Source: Escherichia virus TH47. From it: a stretch of 64,000 bases of DNA. The position numbers and the translations under genes are program-made. The stretch is from sequence record MT446416.1. One strand, 5' to 3'. Positions 55,614 to 64,000 of this stretch are shown piece by piece. Under the pieces are notes generated by a model. The model was not told the DNA's origin and did no database searches. It saw only the letters and a list, made by a program, of their open reading frames with translations. The stretch's first letter is position 1. Every line of letters begins with the position of its first letter.

Positions 55614-55823
55614 TTAATCCTTCGTTACGCTTACGATTATCTGTGTATCCCCATAGTCCTGCCATACTTCCACGCCAGCCGCCGACCTGGTTAGTCGTGC
55701 TGTCATCTGCTTAATGGTCTTAGGCTTTAGTGGAACCTGTTGCAGTACTGTACGCATGGCACTATCGACGTTATCATGTACGCCTGCAATAGTACCTAGA
55801 ACGCTGTATACTGTATAGATCAT
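55614..55823 (-). CDS. hypothetical protein
   Basis: ORF with AGGAG SD; higher GC than the arrays. Confidence 0.5.
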   Translation of the reverse strand: MIYTVYSVLGTIAGVHDNVDSAMRTVLQQVPLKPKTIKQMTARLTRSAAGVEVWQDYGDTQIIVSVTKD

Positions 55824-55847
55824 GTGTATGTACTCCTGATATAGTTA

Positions 55848-55867
55848 AGGCCGCTACAAGGCGGCCT
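55848..55867 (-). other. GC-rich stem-loop (AGGCCGC/GCGGCCT) after 55892..56293, no U-tract
   Basis: Perfect 7-bp stem, 6-nt loop; possible attenuator or RNA-stability element. Confidence 0.35.
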
Positions 55868-55891
55868 ATGATGTTTGATGATGTGTAACGC

Positions 55892-56293
55892 TTACAACCC
55901 TAAGATAGTACGTGCTTCGTTACGTTCCTTAGTTTGCTGCATGATGTAAGCTAACTGGTCCTTGCTAATGTATCCCTTGTCCATAGCTTCACGGATAGAT
56001 ACATCATAAGCACCGAACCCCGTGCGAACGATACGCACATCATTCAGGTTAGTGTTATATATACCGCCGAGATCAACGGATTCGAATACTGCATCAACTG
56101 TATATTCGTTGTTACCGTCATTGAAGTTTTCAATCTCAATATTACGGGACACGGCCCAACGTTTACAGCTACCGATAATGCGGCAATATTCCGGTTGCAT
56201 ATGACCATTACTTACAGCGTGCTCAAGGCCAGCTTTACCAAAAGTCCGGGCCAGTACTAAAACGTCAGCGTAAGAAGTGATAGTGAAAGTCAT
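55892..56293 (-). CDS. hypothetical protein, 133 aa (start trimmed)
   Basis: Track ORF runs through the promoter and hairpin; ATG at 56291-56293 (MTFTITSY) has AAGGAG 7 nt upstream. Confidence 0.55.
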   Translation of the reverse strand: MTFTITSYADVLVLARTFGKAGLEHAVSNGHMQPEYCRIIGSCKRWAVSRNIEIENFNDGNNEYTVDAVFESVDLGGIYNTNLNDVRIVRTGFGAYDVSIREAMDKGYISKDQLAYIMQQTKERNEARTILGL

Positions 56294-56347
56294 GATGATA
56301 CTCCTTAAGTTAGGAGGGAGAACCATTTCCCCCTCTCTATGTAAAAC

Positions 56348-56375
56348 ATTATACATGAATCTAAGTACTATGCAA
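56348..56375 (-). promoter_or_regulatory. sigma70-like promoter TTGCAT-16-TATAAT with AGTACT boxes and 5' UTR hairpin
   Basis: Minus strand AGTACT-TTGCAT-AGTACT...TATAAT; hairpin GAGGGGGAA/TTCTCCCTC at 56313-56338 lies between -10 and SD. Confidence 0.55.
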
Positions 56376-56382
56376 GTACTTT

Positions 56383-56715
56383 TTACATTTTAATACCTGG
56401 ATTCAGGTAGCGGTGAGATCCATACTCTGGGTAGGTTTCAGTCCAGTACTGTAAATCTATAGTACCTTTAGCGTTAATCTTGTCTACCAGCTTATTCATC
56501 TTAGCGTATACTACATTAGCATCGATGCGTTTAAAGCCAGTGGCTTTAGTGAAGTAGTAGTGATTTGCTTCACTATCATTAAGGATATACCGAGCACCGT
56601 TTGCCGTTTGTGCAATAATGATTGAGTATTCTACTTCCCGATCCAGTCCGTCAATGAATACAGATGAAACATTAGTACGGATGAAAGCGTTTACGATAGC
56701 GATTGAAGTACTCAT
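56383..56715 (-). CDS. hypothetical protein
   Basis: ORF with GGAG SD. Confidence 0.55.
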   Translation of the reverse strand: MSTSIAIVNAFIRTNVSSVFIDGLDREVEYSIIIAQTANGARYILNDSEANHYYFTKATGFKRIDANVVYAKMNKLVDKINAKGTIDLQYWTETYPEYGSHRYLNPGIKM

Positions 56716-56768
56716 TTTGAATCTCCTAACTTTGTGGGCCGTCGCACCATTGCCGCCCTACGAGATAC

Positions 56769-56797
56769 ATTATTGCAGTACTGCTATACTTTGTCAA
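56769..56797 (-). promoter_or_regulatory. promoter TTGACA-17-AATAAT
   Basis: Perfect -35, weaker -10; AGTACT in the spacer. Confidence 0.4.
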
Positions 56798-56960
56798 TAG
56801 TTTTTTATTAATAGTTTTAGTACTGGCAGTACATCCACCAGCAGATAGTTACTCACCGTTATTAACTATATATTTTAGATACACCTATGCACCCGGTGGG
56901 CTAGTTTTTGTCTATGCGTATATAATAGCAAAGGGACTTACCGGAGTCAATCCCTTTTTT
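56790..56960. repeat. intergenic repeat module, copy 1
   Basis: Shares ...atgcacccggtgggct...gcgtatataatagcaaagggacttaccggagtcaatccctttttt with copies near 58.0 and 60.7 kb. Confidence 0.55.
56922..56950 (-). promoter_or_regulatory. upstream tandem promoter P1, TTGACT-17-TATTAT, inside repeat module
   Basis: Minus strand TTGACT-ccggtaagtccctttgc-TATTAT, conserved in all three long repeat copies. Confidence 0.45.
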
Positions 56961-56967
56961 ATTCTTT

Positions 56968-57225
56968 TTATGAAATATCTTCGATGTAGTCGGCCCATTT
57001 CATTTTTTCAGTACTGTCAATGGCTACCGGATTATTTGGATCAAACCATTCACCATTACCGCAATACATACCCACGGCTACGGTTTTATAGCCATCCTGT
57101 GCCGTATTCCATGACATTGCACGATAGATATGGCCTTTAATTGGTGTTAGTACTGGTAACGTTTTATGGTCTTCTACGTAGGCCATAGCTTGAGGATTTA
57201 CCCGATATTGTGTGAACTGTTCCAT
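56968..57225 (-). CDS. hypothetical protein
   Basis: ORF with AAGGGGAAA SD. Confidence 0.55.
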   Translation of the reverse strand: MEQFTQYRVNPQAMAYVEDHKTLPVLTPIKGHIYRAMSWNTAQDGYKTVAVGMYCGNGEWFDPNNPVAIDSTEKMKWADYIEDIS

Positions 57226-57253
57226 TATGTTTCCCCTTGTAGTTAGTAAAGTT

Positions 57254-57282
57254 ATTACATCAGTACTATCAAGCTATGTCAA
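57254..57282 (-). promoter_or_regulatory. promoter AGTACT-a-TTGACA-N17-TGTAAT
   Basis: Perfect -35 flanked by AGTACT, second AGTACT in spacer. Confidence 0.45.
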
Positions 57283-57301
57283 TAGTACTGAAATAAAACT
57301 T

Positions 57302-62455: not shown

Positions 62456-62618
62456 TATTTTAACCTCATTATAAAAATACTATATTACTGTAATGCTACA
62501 ATAATACTACTAGTACTAATCTTATTCAAACCACATGATACTACATATCCACCAGCATTACCACGGATAGTAACGCCTTTGTACTGTCTATATAAATTCA
62601 ACTGCGTTTATTGCCTTT

Positions 62619-62688
62619 GATCAAGAATTGATCAGAATTATACGCCTTATGCTAAATTGATCCAGTACTTTTTGATCATTTATTGATC
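62619..62688. promoter_or_regulatory. cluster of five GATC sites interleaved with two TATAAT boxes
   Basis: GATC at 62619, 62630, 62659, 62674, 62685, all as TTGATC(A/C), in 70 bp of the long leader upstream of the TraR-like gene. Confidence 0.45.
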
Positions 62689-62783
62689 AATATTATACAG
62701 TTACATTTGTGCACCCTATGGGTTGGTGACGTTCTCGTCTTGATGTAAGTATTATGCCAGTACTGGATGATATTGTCAATAGA

Positions 62784-62981
62784 TTATTTTAACTTTTTTC
62801 TGTCATTGATTAATGCTTTCAGTACTATACTAATGATTTGCAATGATTCATCAATGACTATAAAATTATTATCTTTCATTAGATGATAGTTACCATTGAT
62901 ATTATATTCTAATGAGTACTGTTTACGTTTAATTTTTGATAATGTTTCTATTTGTTTTTGTACTGATTTCATGCTAATCAT
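62784..62981 (-). CDS. hypothetical protein
   Basis: ORF with AGGA SD. Confidence 0.5.
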   Translation of the reverse strand: MISMKSVQKQIETLSKIKRKQYSLEYNINGNYHLMKDNNFIVIDESLQIISIVLKALINDRKKLK

Positions 62982-63086
62982 TGTTAAACGTCCTGTAACG
63001 CATTCTAACGATATAAACGGTTTAGTACTGGCATTGTATAGGGTAAATGATTAAAGCCCACCAGCGTTAACTAGTGGGCTATAATC

Positions 63087-63230
63087 TTACATCTTGCGGA
63101 TAATCTTAACAGTATCTTTCACCGATTTACCGTCTTGCTGGCATTGCTCGATCATCGCGTATTGTTCTGCGGTCAGATCCTCGCCAGTTTTTGCCAGTAC
63201 TGCATCGATGAATGAATCCAGTGCGATCAT
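63087..63230 (-). CDS. hypothetical small protein, 47 aa (below track cutoff)
   Basis: ATG at 63228-63230 downstream of promoter 63275-63302; MIALDSFIDAVLAKTGEDLTAEQYAMIEQCQQDGKSVKDTVKIIRKM. Confidence 0.4.
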   Translation of the reverse strand: MIALDSFIDAVLAKTGEDLTAEQYAMIEQCQQDGKSVKDTVKIIRKM

Positions 63231-63274
63231 TTTATTTCTCTCTTAGGTTAAGTTAACTACTGTTTATAAAACTT

Positions 63275-63302
63275 ATTATACAGTACTATCAATCTATGTC
63301 AA
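63275..63302 (-). promoter_or_regulatory. promoter AGTACT-a-TTGACA-N9-AGTACT-g-TATAAT
   Basis: Cleanest example of the AGTACT-flanked promoter layout. Confidence 0.5.
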
Positions 63303-63320
63303 TAGTACTGGTAATATATT

Positions 63321-63572
63321 TTATACGGGCTGTACCGCCAGTGTATTATCTGTTATAACCTGGTACATAACTTTTACAGTACTGTATGCTTCTTTGATGC
63401 TTAGCCCTTGAACTACAGGGACTTCATCAGCACCACCAGGAAGGGTACGCGAGATAACCAGTTTATCATTTTCTGAATGTACACAGTAACGATAGGTCAT
63501 CTGGCGACGGGCTAACGCATCATTCAAGTACTGTAAGTGGCGTTCTACGTTCTCGCGAGTAATACGGGTCAT
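63321..63572 (-). CDS. hypothetical protein, 83 aa (start trimmed)
   Basis: ATG at 63570-63572 (MTRITRENVER) with AAGGAAA upstream; track start lies in the promoter. Confidence 0.5.
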   Translation of the reverse strand: MTRITRENVERHLQYLNDALARRQMTYRYCVHSENDKLVISRTLPGGADEVPVVQGLSIKEAYSTVKVMYQVITDNTLAVQPV

Positions 63573-63608
63573 GATTGTTTCCTTAATAGTGTGGACTTGA
63601 TAAAACTT

Positions 63609-63636
63609 ATTATACAGTACTATCAATCTTTGTCAA
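63609..63636 (-). promoter_or_regulatory. promoter AGTACT-a-TTGACA-N16-TATAAT
   Basis: Near-identical to 63275-63302. Confidence 0.5.
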
Positions 63637-63655
63637 TAGTACTGTGATAATATTT

Positions 63656-63868
63656 TTAGTTAATGATAGTCAGTGTAAAATTGTAATCCCCTGCCTGGTA
63701 TAGTACTTTGTCGCCGAACGTACCAACACGTTTCATATTGCAATAGATACCCATAACACTTTTTACATCTTTGATATTCCGAACGCCTGTGATATCCTTG
63801 TTGAAATTTTCATGATCAGAAAATAAAACTTGTTTTGCATTTTTCAGTACAGTGCAGATATTAGCCAT
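63656..63868 (-). CDS. hypothetical protein
   Basis: ORF downstream of promoter and hairpin. Confidence 0.55.
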   Translation of the reverse strand: MANICTVLKNAKQVLFSDHENFNKDITGVRNIKDVKSVMGIYCNMKRVGTFGDKVLYQAGDYNFTLTIIN

Positions 63869-63920
63869 TTTGTTTTCTCTTTGTTAGTGGGGAGAATCAT
63901 TTCTCCCCTTGATGTAACTT

Positions 63921-63948
63921 ATTATACAGTACTATAATCTATTGTCAA
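63921..63948 (-). promoter_or_regulatory. promoter TTGACA-16-TATAAT with 5' UTR hairpin
   Basis: Hairpin GGGGAGAA/TTCTCCCC at 63889-63908, identical to the 61433-61452 hairpin. Confidence 0.55.
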
Positions 63949-64000
63949 ACTATTTTTTAATATTATTCGAAATCTTCTGGACCGGACTGATAATCATCTT

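What the first reader, a model, noticed from the sequence alone, without database searches (positions are those of the whole stretch)
55800..63960. Early-region-like block: one strong promoter per small gene, each with a conserved GGGGAR...YTCCCC 5' UTR hairpin
At least ten intergenic cassettes repeat the layout A-tract, -35 (TTGACA or TTGCAT), 16-17 bp, TATAAT, 8-10 bp stem GGGG(G)A(G)AA-loop-TTC(T)CCCC, SD, ATG. Some hairpins are identical (61433-61452 and 63889-63908). A conserved stem-loop at the extreme 5' end of many early mRNAs suggests shared mRNA stabilisation or a common binding site for a translational regulator or RNase.
Basis: seen in the sequence. Interest (0 to 1): 0.6.

Follow-up and report, generated by a model that had tools for sequence, protein, structure and literature searches.

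The report
Jumbo-phage early promoter–hairpin cassettes
The flagged block is the inner part of the long terminal repeat of a PBECO4/121Q-type jumbo coliphage, where small orphan genes sit behind repeated, portable "strong promoter + RNA hairpin + ribosome site" cassettes that resemble the PeSL shuffling cassettes of T4-type phages, so it is a new variant of a known design rather than a new kind of element.

Summary
All genes and signals lie on the minus strand. About 21 sigma-70-type promoters sit in 55.5-64 kb. Eight of them carry the canonical G-rich/C-rich hairpin. One more carries a long-loop variant and one a degenerate copy. A covariance model finds no other copy in the 64-kb window.

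The block matches the roughly 21-kb direct terminal repeat (DTR) of Asteriusvirus jumbo phages. In relatives the cassette occurs only inside the DTR.

The hairpin is a selected structure on the sense strand. Fifty-one distinct versions from seven phages keep pairing through compensatory changes, with 10 G·U pairs and no A·C pairs. It starts 10-14 nt after the -10 box, so it is transcribed. It probably follows 3-7 unpaired nucleotides, which fits poorly with a classical 5'-terminal stabiliser.

The whole cassette is a dispersed repeat of 45-110 nt placed before unrelated orphan genes. Gene gains and losses between related phages have their edges inside cassettes. Modules are shared with unrelated Vequintavirinae phages.

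The closest known system is the PeSL (promoter-early stem-loop) of RB49/phi1. Here, however, the stem-loop lies in the 5' UTR and has no U-tract. The molecular role of the hairpin remains inferred.

The parts
63866..63948 (-). Cassette 1. -35 TTGACA 63948-63943; -10 TATAAT 63926-63921; hairpin GGGGAGAAatgaTTCTCCCC 63908-63889; SD; ATG 63868 of a 70-aa ORFan (63656-63868).
   Evidence: MFE -13.9, z -4.1; 52.5 bits
61688..61765 (-). Cassette 2. -35 TTGACA 61765-61760; -10 TATACT 61743-61738; hairpin AGGGGAAacatcTTCCCCT 61726-61708; ATG 61690 (62-aa ORFan).
   Evidence: (46.4 bits); one recombination partner in the GNAT-gene indel
61413..61492 (-). Cassette 3. -35 TGGACA 61492-61487; -10 61470-61465; hairpin 61452-61433, identical to that of cassette 1; ATG 61415 (70-aa ORFan unrelated to the gene of cassette 1).
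   Evidence: (repeat family D6, 88 nt, 84%)
61114..61195 (-). Cassette 4. -35 TTGCAC 61195-61190; -10 61173-61168; hairpin GAGGGGAAtagTTCCCCTC 61155-61137; ATG 61116.
   Evidence: (53.6 bits)
60117..60203 (-). Cassette 5. -35 TTGACA 60203-60198; -10 60181-60176; hairpin GAGGGGAAtggTTCCCCTC 60161-60143; ATG 60119 (107 aa).
   Evidence: (52.8 bits); the indel edge against PBECO4 lies in this cassette
57855..57937 (-). Cassette 6. -35 TTGCAT 57937-57932; -10 57915-57910; hairpin GAGGGGGAAatggTTTCCCCTC 57897-57876 (contains a G·U pair); ATG 57857.
   Evidence: a 782-bp indel in UE-S1/PBECO4 is flanked by copies of this cassette
57524..57601 (-). Cassette 7. -35 TTGCAT 57601-57596; -10 57579-57574; hairpin GGGGGAGatatcCTCCCCC 57563-57545; ATG 57526 (74 aa).
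   Evidence: (51.1 bits)
56291..56375 (-). Cassette 8. -35 TTGCAT 56375-56370; -10 56353-56348; hairpin GAGGGGGAAatggTTCTCCCTC 56335-56314 (contains a G·U pair); ATG 56293 (133 aa).
   Evidence: (56.6 bits)
60505..60682 (-). Variant cassette. TTGCAT promoter (-35 at 60659), a long-loop G/C hairpin within a larger fold, and an SD followed by ATA instead of ATG, so no ORF. It lies directly upstream of a second consensus promoter (60543-60516). The roughly 180-nt unit is conserved, with two copies in vB_Ec-M-J and one in Vequintavirinae phage A73.
   Evidence: z -4.9; 37 bits; 82-85% identity to L004, L006 x2, L003, L001
56713..56797 (-). Degenerate cassette. Promoter TTGACA-17-AATAAT (56797-56769), an imperfect hairpin GGGCGGCAAtggTGCGACGGCCC (56765-56743), SD, and ATG 56715.
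   Evidence: z -0.8; not detected by the covariance model
63609..63636 (-). Consensus promoter without a hairpin (12/12).
63275..63302 (-). Consensus promoter without the G/C hairpin (12/12).
62751..62779 (-). Promoter TTGACA-17-CATAAT (extended -10). Its transcript carries the CCCAtagGGTG hairpin and then the TGATCA-rich leader of the DksA-like gene.
62164..62191 (-). Consensus promoter without a hairpin, in front of the GNAT acetyltransferase gene (61778-62134). It is nearly identical to the promoter of cassette 2 and is the other recombination partner in the GNAT-gene indel.
   Evidence: D5, 91%
60516..60543 (-). Consensus promoter without a hairpin (12/12).
59745..59773 (-). Consensus promoter without a hairpin (12/12).
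58963..58991 (-). Promoter TTGACA-17-TACTAT without a hairpin. A 216-bp indel against UE-S1 is flanked by this repeat.
56872..56979 (-). Type-B element, copy 1 (108-nt repeat). A G/C stem-loop plus T-run encloses a TTGACT -35, followed by TGcTATTAT, giving a classic PeSL-like terminator/promoter composite. Its transcript carries a conserved CCCAnnnGGGTGC hairpin.
   Evidence: D2; the stem is annotated 'terminator' in UE-S1
57976..58083 (-). Type-B element, copy 2.
   Evidence: D2
60700..60807 (-). Type-B element, copy 3.
   Evidence: D2
59264..59282 (-). The only canonical intrinsic terminator in the block (GGCGGGATCAGTTCCCGC + T7). Its stem resembles the 5'-UTR hairpins.
55440..55480 (.). Approximate inner boundary of the direct terminal repeat. 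It is projected from vB_Ec-M-J position 21525 to about window 55463. Genes to the left are tightly packed and have no individual promoters.

Best explanation
Window 55.5-64 kb is the inner third of the roughly 21-kb direct terminal repeat of an Asteriusvirus (PBECO4/121Q-like) jumbo coliphage. This is its host-RNA-polymerase-dependent (pre-)early region.

The small orphan genes there are expressed from dispersed, repeated expression cassettes. Each has an A-rich UP-like tract, a near-consensus sigma-70 promoter with a 16-bp spacer, a conserved initial transcribed motif (TTACATCRA), an SD and an ATG. In 8-9 of about 21 cassettes there is also a 7-9 bp G/C-rich stem-loop.

What is shown:
- The stem-loop is maintained by selection for base pairing on the sense strand, meaning in the mRNA.
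- It sits at a fixed place, starting 10-14 nt after the -10 box and ending 17-23 nt before the ATG.
- It leaves the SD free.
- The cassettes, with or without the hairpin, are the homology at which gene-sized insertions, deletions and replacements occur between related phages.
- Cassette-plus-gene modules have moved into unrelated phages.

What is inferred:
- The cassette is a portable, self-contained expression module of the PeSL type.
- The hairpin acts in the RNA as a 5'-proximal structural cap or insulator. It would limit 5'-end-dependent decay and keep the UTR in one fold with the ribosome site open, whatever gene or upstream read-through RNA it is joined to.
- It is not a terminator or a protein operator.
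For: Identity and context:
- 83 phage records match at 80-95% identity (best place per record), all of the leading ones Asteriusvirus.
- The DTR is annotated as 1-21525 in vB_Ec-M-J. There, one-promoter-per-gene spacing stops at the repeat end.
- Window 55215-64000 aligns to the inner part of that DTR.

Hairpin reality: 8 copies against 1.4 expected. The model with filters off finds 8 plus 1 copies only in this block.

DTR restriction: 102 model hits in 272 kb from 7 phages and the window. All are on the sense strand and all lie inside the DTRs (L006 1699-20680, L007 2758-18903, L003 13313-31772).

Selection on pairing: 7 of 7 pairs show double changes. There are 88 compensated cells against 31 +/- 4 in shuffles, and the covariation score is 0.478 against 0.227, reached by 0 of 500 shuffles. 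The 3' arms are not interchangeable between copies.

Sense-strand specificity: a strand-symmetric census of 51 unique hairpins gives 391 Watson-Crick, 10 G·U and 0 A·C pairs.

Conservation: the same position and flanks (..CATMRA-hairpin-ACTAA..SD) occur in RaK2, fENko-Kae01 and Hallingskeid, at about 29% ANI to fEgEco12 per PMC13070987.

Portability:
- Identical cassettes precede unrelated ORFans.
- Indel edges against UE-S1, PBECO4 and vB_Ec-M-J fall in cassettes, with the cassette duplicated on both flanks.
- The single PBECO4 cassette is a chimera of the two window cassettes that flank the GNAT gene.
- Cassette-plus-gene modules are shared at 72-86% identity with Vequintavirinae phage A73.

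SD free in all 8 folds.

The closest described system, PeSL, has the same parts and the same role in recombination (PMC2839356 and PMC4122927).
Against: - No transcription start, RNA half-life or translation measurement exists for any phage of this group. Literature searches found none. 'Early' timing and the RNA role are therefore inferred.
- The predicted unpaired leader of 3-7 nt is long enough for RppH and RNase E (PMC8833179). RNase E also bypasses orthogonal stem-loops (PMC9943677). A stabilising effect is thus not predicted by current rules unless starts lie unusually far downstream.
- More than half of the equally strong promoters in the same block do without the hairpin. It is not essential for expression.
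- Many copies are related by descent, so counts of G·U pairs and compensated cells overstate the number of independent events. Perhaps 6-8 of the G·U events are independent.
- Breakpoints in intergenic DNA are partly expected for any viable gene-level indel.
Confidence: 0.6

Rival explanations
1. Classical 5'-terminal stem-loop stabiliser. The hairpin sits at the very 5' end of each early mRNA and blocks RppH and the RNase E 5' sensor, as in ompA and papA.
For: The hairpin is a stable G/C structure at a fixed short distance from the promoter, selected at RNA level. For cassette 8 and the offset-10 class the predicted leader can be as short as 0-3 nt.
Against: For most cassettes the leader is 4-7 nt when starts lie 6-9 nt after the -10 box. 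RppH and RNase E need at least 2 unpaired nucleotides and prefer 3 or more (PMC8833179). The ompA rule of no more than 2-4 unpaired nt (Emory et al. 1992) is cited from my own knowledge. Hairpin-less promoters of equal strength coexist in the block.
Confidence: 0.25
2. Attenuator or terminator of read-through from upstream cassettes, the role proposed for PeSL stem-loops. This would insulate each gene transcriptionally.
For: An RB49 PeSL stem-loop lowered lacZ expression as much as rrnB T1 (PMC2839356). The stems have similar G/C composition. Only one canonical terminator exists in the 8.5 kb. The terminator at 59264-59282 has a related stem.
Against: No U-tract follows any of the 8 hairpins; the tail is (A)CUAAnnAGAGG. 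The terminator scan does not call them on the sense strand. The hairpin lies downstream of its own promoter, so it would abort the cassette's own transcripts as well. In RB49 the stem-loop sits inside the promoter and is followed by the T-rich -10 region.
Confidence: 0.12
3. Recognition element in the RNA for a phage or host RNA-binding regulator or RNase, for example for coordinated shut-off of terminal-repeat transcripts.
For: The flanks (CAUMRA before, ACUAA after) and the GGG/CCC stem base are conserved across genera. The element is restricted to one temporal and physical class of genes, those in the DTR. T4 has a precedent in RegB, which inactivates early mRNAs at GGAG (PMC3014915).
Against: The stem sequence, stem length (6-12 bp) and loop (3-6 nt) vary widely. 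No candidate protein has been identified. RegB is inhibited by secondary structure. Half of the DTR genes lack the element.
Confidence: 0.13
4. Double-stranded DNA operator. The palindrome at about +6 to +27 binds a dimeric repressor that switches off the terminal-repeat promoters.
For: It is a perfect or near-perfect inverted repeat just downstream of the start site, a classical roadblock position.
Against: Half-site spacing varies, with loops of 3-6 nt. Arm sequences covary instead of being conserved. Mismatches are exclusively G·T on the sense strand, 10 against 0, which has no meaning for duplex DNA.
Confidence: 0.05
5. The hairpin has no function of its own. It is a passenger that spread with the promoter repeats by duplication and gene conversion, and matters, if at all, only as extra homology or a recombination hotspot.
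For: The cassettes form repeat families by descent. Crossovers lie within cassettes. The PeSL authors speculated that GGGG...CCCC could be a recombination target.
Against: Pairing is kept through many different arm sequences and across genera at about 29% ANI, with sense-specific wobble pairs. That requires purifying selection on the RNA or single-strand fold.
Confidence: 0.07

Closest known systems
PeSL (promoter-early stem-loop) cassettes of T4-type phages RB49/phi1, PST/T4 and nt-1/KVP40 (Arbiol et al. 2010, PMC2839356; Comeau et al. 2014, PMC4122927)
   Same: An AT-rich tract, a near-consensus sigma-70 promoter, a Gn-loop-Cn stem-loop with G·T pairs, and SD/ATG. They are intergenic between small ORFans in hyperplastic DNA. 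They form repeated families, and indels and replacements between close relatives have their edges in the cassettes (searches compared with 38, 63, 80).
   Different: In RB49 the stem-loop lies between -35 and -10 or overlaps a box, so the primary transcript carries at most one arm. It is followed by T-rich DNA and behaves as a terminator. Here it lies wholly in the 5' UTR at +4 to +30, has no U-tract, and is confined to a terminal repeat. There is no sequence-level match: model R1 finds nothing in 50 kb of RB49. The window's 108-nt type-B elements do have the classic PeSL geometry.
5'-terminal stem-loop mRNA stabilisers of E. coli (ompA, papA; Emory, Bouvet and Belasco 1992, from my own knowledge; reference list seen)
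   Same: A sequence-independent hairpin near the 5' end of an mRNA with an open ribosome-binding site downstream.
   Different: Those hairpins must lie within about 2-4 nt of the 5' end. Here 3-7 unpaired nucleotides are predicted, and no half-life data exist.
Pre-early (first-step-transfer) region in the terminal repeat of phage T5, with its very strong sigma-70 promoters (from my own knowledge)
   Same: A long direct terminal repeat carries small host-takeover genes. Each has a very strong host-type promoter with an A-rich upstream tract. The start-proximal sequence TATAATAGATT resembles that of T5 PN25.
   Different: There is no relatedness between the phages. T5 promoters are not known to carry a G/C 5'-UTR hairpin. 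Two-step DNA transfer has not been shown for Asteriusvirus.
RpoD-like early promoters with UP-like elements predicted in Rak2-like phage CBB (Buttimer et al. 2017, PMC5259590)
   Same: The same phage group and the same promoter class, concentrated upstream of short hypothetical genes and reaching into the terminal repeat.
   Different: That paper does not mention hairpins or stem-loops (0 occurrences), the repeat nature of the cassettes, or recombination.

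Membership tests
PeSL cassettes (T4-type phages) | Near-consensus sigma-70 early promoter with an AT-rich upstream tract | tested here: met
   7 promoters score 12/12 and several score 10-11/12 in 8.5 kb, all on the minus strand, with A-tracts upstream.
PeSL cassettes (T4-type phages) | Associated stable stem-loop rich in polyG/polyC | tested here: met
   8 hairpins at -10.6 to -16 kcal/mol of the GGGG..CCCC type. Only about 40% of the promoters have one.
PeSL cassettes (T4-type phages) | Stem-loop placed within or just next to the promoter (upstream of -35, in the spacer, overlapping a box, or just before the start site) | tested here: not met
   The hairpin starts 10-14 nt after the -10 box, which is inside the transcript. 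RB49 copies lie in the spacer or the -10 box. The three type-B elements in the window do meet this feature.
PeSL cassettes (T4-type phages) | Stem-loop acts as a terminator or attenuator of upstream transcription | tested here: inconclusive
   No U-tract follows the hairpins, and the terminator scan does not call them on the sense strand. Function was not measured.
PeSL cassettes (T4-type phages) | Intergenic location between small ORFans in a hyperplastic region | tested here: met
   The genes are 47-213 aa. Eight of the ten tested have no Pfam match. Relatives cover only 65-97% of the block, in 5-18 pieces.
PeSL cassettes (T4-type phages) | Indel and replacement breakpoints between close relatives lie in the cassettes, indicating recombination between copies | tested here: met
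   Overlapping alignment ends fall at 57877-57949, 58930-58991 and 60113-60220, with further edges at 61774/62181 and 63323/63579. A chimeric cassette occurs in PBECO4.
PeSL cassettes (T4-type phages) | Formation of excised mini-circles | not testable with these tools
   This needs inverse PCR on infected cells or virion DNA.
5'-terminal stem-loop mRNA stabiliser (ompA type) | Hairpin within about 2-4 nt of the transcript 5' end | tested here: inconclusive
   The predicted leader is 3-7 nt for starts 6-9 nt after the -10 box. It is shorter only for cassettes 7 and 8. No start sites have been mapped.
5'-terminal stem-loop mRNA stabiliser (ompA type) | The structure matters, not the sequence | tested here: met
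   Compensatory variation is seen in all 7 modelled pairs.
5'-terminal stem-loop mRNA stabiliser (ompA type) | Prolongs mRNA half-life in vivo | not testable with these tools
   No RNA data are available for this phage group.
Intrinsic (Rho-independent) terminator | G/C hairpin immediately followed by a U-tract | tested here: not met
   The tails ACUAAGAGG and CUAACAAAG hold 1 U in the first 8 nt. The true terminator at 59264-59282 has T7.
Known RNA families (Rfam 15) | Match to a curated covariance model | tested here: not met
   Only two sub-threshold chance hits were found in 54-64 kb.

The most novel reading that the evidence does not exclude
The 5'-UTR hairpin, with its conserved CAUMRA and ACUAA flanks, is an RNA identity tag of terminal-repeat (pre-early) transcripts in Rak2-like jumbo phages. 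A dedicated phage or host factor would read it to give these messages a common fate: protection while host mRNA is destroyed, or synchronous shut-off. The same tag would travel with the cassette when genes are exchanged between phage families. This would be a mobile post-transcriptional regulon rather than a plain structural insulator.
Probability: 0.15. Interest if true: 0.7.

Novelty: new variant of a known kind. Interest (0 to 1): 0.45.

Why it matters
This extends promoter/stem-loop shuffling cassettes from T4-type phages to the terminal repeats of 350-kb jumbo phages. It shows that such cassettes can carry a transcribed, RNA-selected hairpin. It also shows that cassette-plus-gene modules cross between unrelated coliphage families.

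In practice, it gives a compact rule for annotating about 25 expression units per genome in more than 40 sequenced Asteriusvirus-like phages that are being considered for therapy. It also offers a natural set of very strong, insulated promoter and 5'-UTR parts.

Whether a hairpin that follows a short unpaired leader can stabilise or insulate mRNA is directly testable with these natural variants. The answer bears on current models of 5'-end-dependent decay.

Tried and rejected
- Rfam scan of 54-64 kb at E <= 1 gave only two chance hits.
- The MAFFT alignment of 54 cassettes was out of structural register because loops and stems differ in length. I used it only to seed model R1 and relied on the model-based alignment and my own structural census.
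- My first hairpin censuses were flawed. One rejected true stems that ran on into flanking chance pairs. One truncated stems. One was pre-filtered with a sense-strand fold, which could bias G·U against A·C. I repeated the census with strand-symmetric selection.
- The IMG/VR exact-pattern scan returned 8 stretches, but only phage 121Q holds real cassettes. The other contigs are single chance matches that the model does not support.
- RB49 PeSLs are not detected by the model, so there is no sequence-level homology to them.
- Paralogy of the genes behind the identical hairpins is rejected, since they show no similarity.
- RNase E scanning-obstacle idea is rejected, because RNase E bypasses simple stem-loops.
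- Switch idea: the C-rich arm would sequester the SD once the 5' arm is lost. The pairing appears in 7 of 8 cassettes but is weak (total MFE of the truncated RNAs -3.1 to -6.6 kcal/mol), so I did not adopt it.
- G-quadruplex and RNase III substrate were considered and dropped, because there is only one G-run per cassette and the stems are under 10 bp.
- One literature search was wasted on unanchored terms, and one paper was not held.
- CMSTMSU (L002) was excluded from the statistics because it is an UNVERIFIED record whose hairpin copies look damaged; I took these for sequencing errors but did not test that.

Full report
**1. What is in the sequence**

Read that way, the intergenic gaps show the following order:
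- an A-rich tract, often ending in AAAAAGTAC;
- a -35 box (TTGACA, TTGCAT/TTGCAC or TGGACA);
- a 16-bp spacer;
- TATAAT;
- a conserved start-proximal motif (N3-TTACATCRA).

In some gaps a G-rich/C-rich hairpin follows, then (A)CTAA, a Shine-Dalgarno sequence and ATG.

The consensus scan finds seven 12/12 promoters and several at 10-11/12. All are on the minus strand and all lie in this block. Over the whole window, such strong promoters cluster here.

**2. Is the hairpin more than chance?**

A strict scan looked for a purine-only 5' arm containing GGG, at least 6 pairs and a loop of 3-11 nt. It finds eight hairpins on the minus strand: 63889-63908, 61708-61726, 61433-61452, 61137-61155, 60143-60161, 57876-57897, 57545-57563 and 56314-56335. 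All start 10-14 nt after a -10 box. Only two unrelated hits occur in the other 56 kb. Second-order Markov shuffles give 1.4 +/- 1.2 per 64 kb.

The RNA folds are -10.6 to -16 kcal/mol, and the SD is unpaired in all eight.

A covariance model (R1) was built from 54 cassettes of seven phages and the window. Run without filters over the whole window, it returns exactly these eight copies (46-57 bits). It also returns a ninth, long-loop variant at 60545-60637, and nothing else.

It folds no better than shuffled sequence and the model does not detect it. About eleven equally strong promoters in the block have no hairpin.

**3. Where this is**

The block is 80-95% identical (best place per record) to 83 phage records. 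The leading ones are jumbo coliphages of the genus Asteriusvirus, including PBECO4, 121Q, phAPEC6, UE-S1 and vB_Ec-M-J.

In vB_Ec-M-J, positions 1-21525 are annotated as the direct terminal repeat. Inside it, 53 small genes are each separated by 60-100 bp. Immediately beyond it, genes overlap and carry no individual promoters.

DTRs of about 21 kb were confirmed experimentally for fEgEco12 and found by PhageTerm for Sharanji.

Window 55215-64000 aligns with the inner part of that repeat. This places the repeat boundary near window 55463.

Across 272 kb from seven phages and the window, the model finds 102 copies. All are on the sense strand and all lie within the repeat: L006 1699-20680 of 1-21525, L007 2758-18903 of 1-19736, and an 18.5-kb stretch of PBECO4. 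About 26 of the 53 DTR genes of vB_Ec-M-J carry the hairpin.

The 'early-region-like block' is thus the terminal repeat. Its early timing is inferred from the host-type promoters, as was done for the related phage CBB. It has not been measured.

**4. Is the hairpin a selected structure, and on which strand?**

The arms differ between copies and phages but stay complementary. Examples are GGGGAGAA/TTCTCCCC, GAGGGGAA/TTCCCCTC, AGCGGGAA/TTCCCGCT, GTGGGGAA/TTCCCCAC and GGGGGAG/CTCCCCC. In RaK2 there are GGGATACA/TGTATCCC, GGGAATGAA/TTCATTCCC, GGAGATTCCA/TGGAATCTCC and GGGGCAA/TTGCCCC.

On the model-based alignment, all 7 pairs show changes on both sides. There are 88 compensated cells against 31 +/- 4 in shuffles. 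The covariation score is 0.478 against 0.227, reached by 0 of 500 shuffles, and slid registers score lower. That alignment is fitted to the structure and many copies share descent, so these figures are upper bounds.

A census that treats G·T and A·C mismatches identically finds 51 distinct hairpins with 391 Watson-Crick pairs, 10 G·U and 0 A·C. An A·C pair on this strand would be a G·U pair on the other, so the asymmetry points to pairing of the sense strand, meaning the mRNA.

Loops vary from 3 to 6 nt and stems from 6 to 12 bp. Together with the covariation, this argues against a duplex-DNA operator and against a strictly sequence-specific RNA-binding site. The flanks (CAUMRA before, ACUAA after) and the GGG/CCC stem base are nevertheless conserved as far away as Klebsiella and Erwinia relatives.

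**5. Geometry relative to the transcript**

With starts 6-9 nt after the -10 box, the hairpin is always inside the RNA. It is preceded by 3-7 unpaired nucleotides in most cassettes, and by fewer only in cassettes 7 and 8.

E. coli RppH and RNase E need at least two unpaired 5' nucleotides and prefer three or more (PMC8833179). RNase E also scans past simple stem-loops (PMC9943677). The classical 5'-terminal stabiliser mechanism is therefore not favoured by the predicted geometry, although it is not excluded until starts are mapped.

The hairpins are not intrinsic terminators. Their tails hold 1 U in the first 8 nt. The one true terminator of the block, at 59264-59282, has a T7 run.

If the 5' arm is removed, the C-rich arm pairs with the SD in 7 of 8 cassettes, but only weakly (total MFE of the truncated RNAs -3.1 to -6.6 kcal/mol). 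I do not build on that.

**6. The cassettes are dispersed repeats and recombination sites**

The block holds ten families of direct repeats of 30-108 nt, and most of them are the cassettes. The 88-nt cassettes at 61428-61515 and 63884-63971 are 84% identical and have identical hairpins, yet they precede 70-aa proteins with no detectable similarity. Eight of the ten downstream proteins tested have no Pfam match.

Against UE-S1, PBECO4 and vB_Ec-M-J, collinear alignment blocks end or overlap in cassettes:
- at 57877-57949, with a 782-bp insertion in UE-S1 and PBECO4 flanked by two copies;
- at 58930-58991;
- at 60113-60220;
- at 61774/62181;
- at 63323/63579.

The GNAT acetyltransferase gene (61778-62134) is absent from PBECO4. 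The single PBECO4 cassette at that spot has the upstream half of the window cassette at 62164-62200 and the downstream half, including the hairpin, of the cassette at 61708-61743. That is the product expected from a crossover between two promoter repeats.

Cassette-plus-gene modules are also shared with the unrelated 142-kb Vequintavirinae phage A73, at 72-86% nucleotide identity.

**7. Comparison with what is known**

The closest described system is the PeSL (promoter-early stem-loop) of the T4-type phages RB49 and phi1. It comprises a strong sigma-70 promoter, an AT-rich tract, a Gn-loop-Cn stem-loop with G·T pairs, and an SD. It lies between ORFans in hyperplastic regions, mediates indels, and forms mini-circles (PMC2839356, PMC4122927).

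I read RB49's own PeSLs. There the stem-loop lies in the spacer or overlaps the -10 box, and the authors showed terminator activity. Model R1 finds nothing in 50 kb of RB49.

The cassettes here share the parts list, the genomic habitat and the recombination behaviour. They differ in the defining position of the stem-loop (transcribed 5' UTR, no U-tract) and in being confined to a terminal repeat.

The window also holds three 108-nt type-B elements: 56872-56979, 57976-58083 and 60700-60807. In these a G/C stem plus T-run encloses the -35 box, which is the classic PeSL geometry.

No paper on Asteriusvirus or Rak2-like phages in the searchable library mentions these hairpins. I therefore rate this as a new variant of a known kind.

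**8. Verdict**

Shown:
- the cassettes exist;
- they are restricted to the terminal repeat;
- the hairpin is selected as a sense-strand structure at a fixed place;
- the SD is left free;
- the cassettes are the sites of gene shuffling.

Inferred:
- early timing;
- the start sites;
- the hairpin's role.

My best reading is a portable expression module whose RNA hairpin acts as a 5'-proximal cap or insulator (confidence 0.6 for the whole statement). Confidence is about 0.85 for the cassette and recombination part, about 0.8 for RNA-level selection, and about 0.35 for any particular molecular effect. Rival readings and the experiments that separate them are listed in their own sections.

Noticed in passing
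whole window; densest in 56000-64000; none in 39780-48216 or 50637-55592: The palindrome AGTACT occurs 220 times against 17.5 +/- 4.1 expected. It is 10-fold over mononucleotide expectation, while the next palindromic hexamer is only 2.3-fold over. It prefers the context CAGTACTG and lies in coding DNA as well as in promoters (AAAAAGTAC-TTGCAT and cAGTACTg-TATAAT). The density is similar (4-7 per kb) in PBECO4, RaK2, fENko-Kae01 and Hallingskeid, but it is 0.5 per kb in Vequintavirinae A73. A literature search found no mention of this. It remains unexplained; it could be a binding or modification site.
   Followed up: partly
window 56835, 58888, 60690, 61590, 62549, 63058 (minus strand); also 7860 (-) and 17462 (+): There are eight Chi sites (GCTGGTGG) against 0.43 expected. 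Six lie in the 8.5-kb terminal-repeat part, all on the gene-sense strand. Relatives show the same pattern: 9 sense-oriented Chi sites inside the vB_Ec-M-J DTR and none in the next 23 kb, 12 in the fENko-Kae01 DTR, 11 in Hallingskeid and 9 in RaK2. In addition, one opposite-oriented Chi site lies about 0.5 kb from the left genome end. By the standard polarity rule for Chi (my own knowledge), the sense set would be active for RecBCD entering at the right genome end, and the lone antisense site for entry at the left end. This suggests end protection or recombination of the terminal repeats.
   Followed up: partly
window 56872-56979, 57976-58083, 60700-60807; hairpin-only copy near 62715-62730: A 108-nt repeat (type-B element) has the form AAAAAGGGA-TTGACT-ccggtaag-TCCCTTTgc-TATTAT. 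It is a terminator-like G/C stem that encloses a -35 box. Its predicted transcript carries a conserved CCCAnnnGGGTGC hairpin followed by cataaatgtatcta, often a Chi site, and no ORF for about 100 nt. The element is conserved in RaK2, fENko-Kae01 and Hallingskeid. It may be a small RNA or a leader. It has no Rfam match.
   Followed up: partly
window 60505-60682 (minus strand): A promoter is followed by a structured RNA of about 75 nt (MFE -23.7 kcal/mol, z -4.9). It has an SD but ATA where the ATG should be, so there is no ORF. It sits just upstream of a second consensus promoter. The 180-nt unit is conserved at 82-85% identity, with two copies in the vB_Ec-M-J DTR and one in Vequintavirinae A73. 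It may be a non-coding RNA or a regulatory leader rather than a dead gene.
   Followed up: partly
window 62560-62700: Four TGATCA palindromes plus one near-copy (each containing a GATC Dam site) lie within about 90 bp of the long untranslated leader of the DksA/TraR-type zinc-finger gene (62198-62455; Pfam PF01258, E = 2.6e-10). They look like operator sites or SeqA/Dam sites. UE-S1 lacks this roughly 317-bp stretch.
   Followed up: no
L004 (phage A73, OP778609.1 70609-78684) against window 63595-63883 and L006/L003: Several DTR gene-plus-cassette modules of Asteriusvirus are shared at 72-86% nucleotide identity with a 142-kb Vequintavirinae coliphage, in a stretch of small early-type genes. 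This indicates recent exchange of early modules between unrelated phage families that infect E. coli.
   Followed up: partly
window 54000-55400: Just outside the repeat boundary, the small genes (65-74 aa) overlap by 4 nt (ATGA-type junctions) and have no individual promoters. A single TTGACT-16-TATTAT promoter at 55422-55395 precedes them. This contrasts sharply with the one-promoter-per-gene layout inside the repeat.
   Followed up: no
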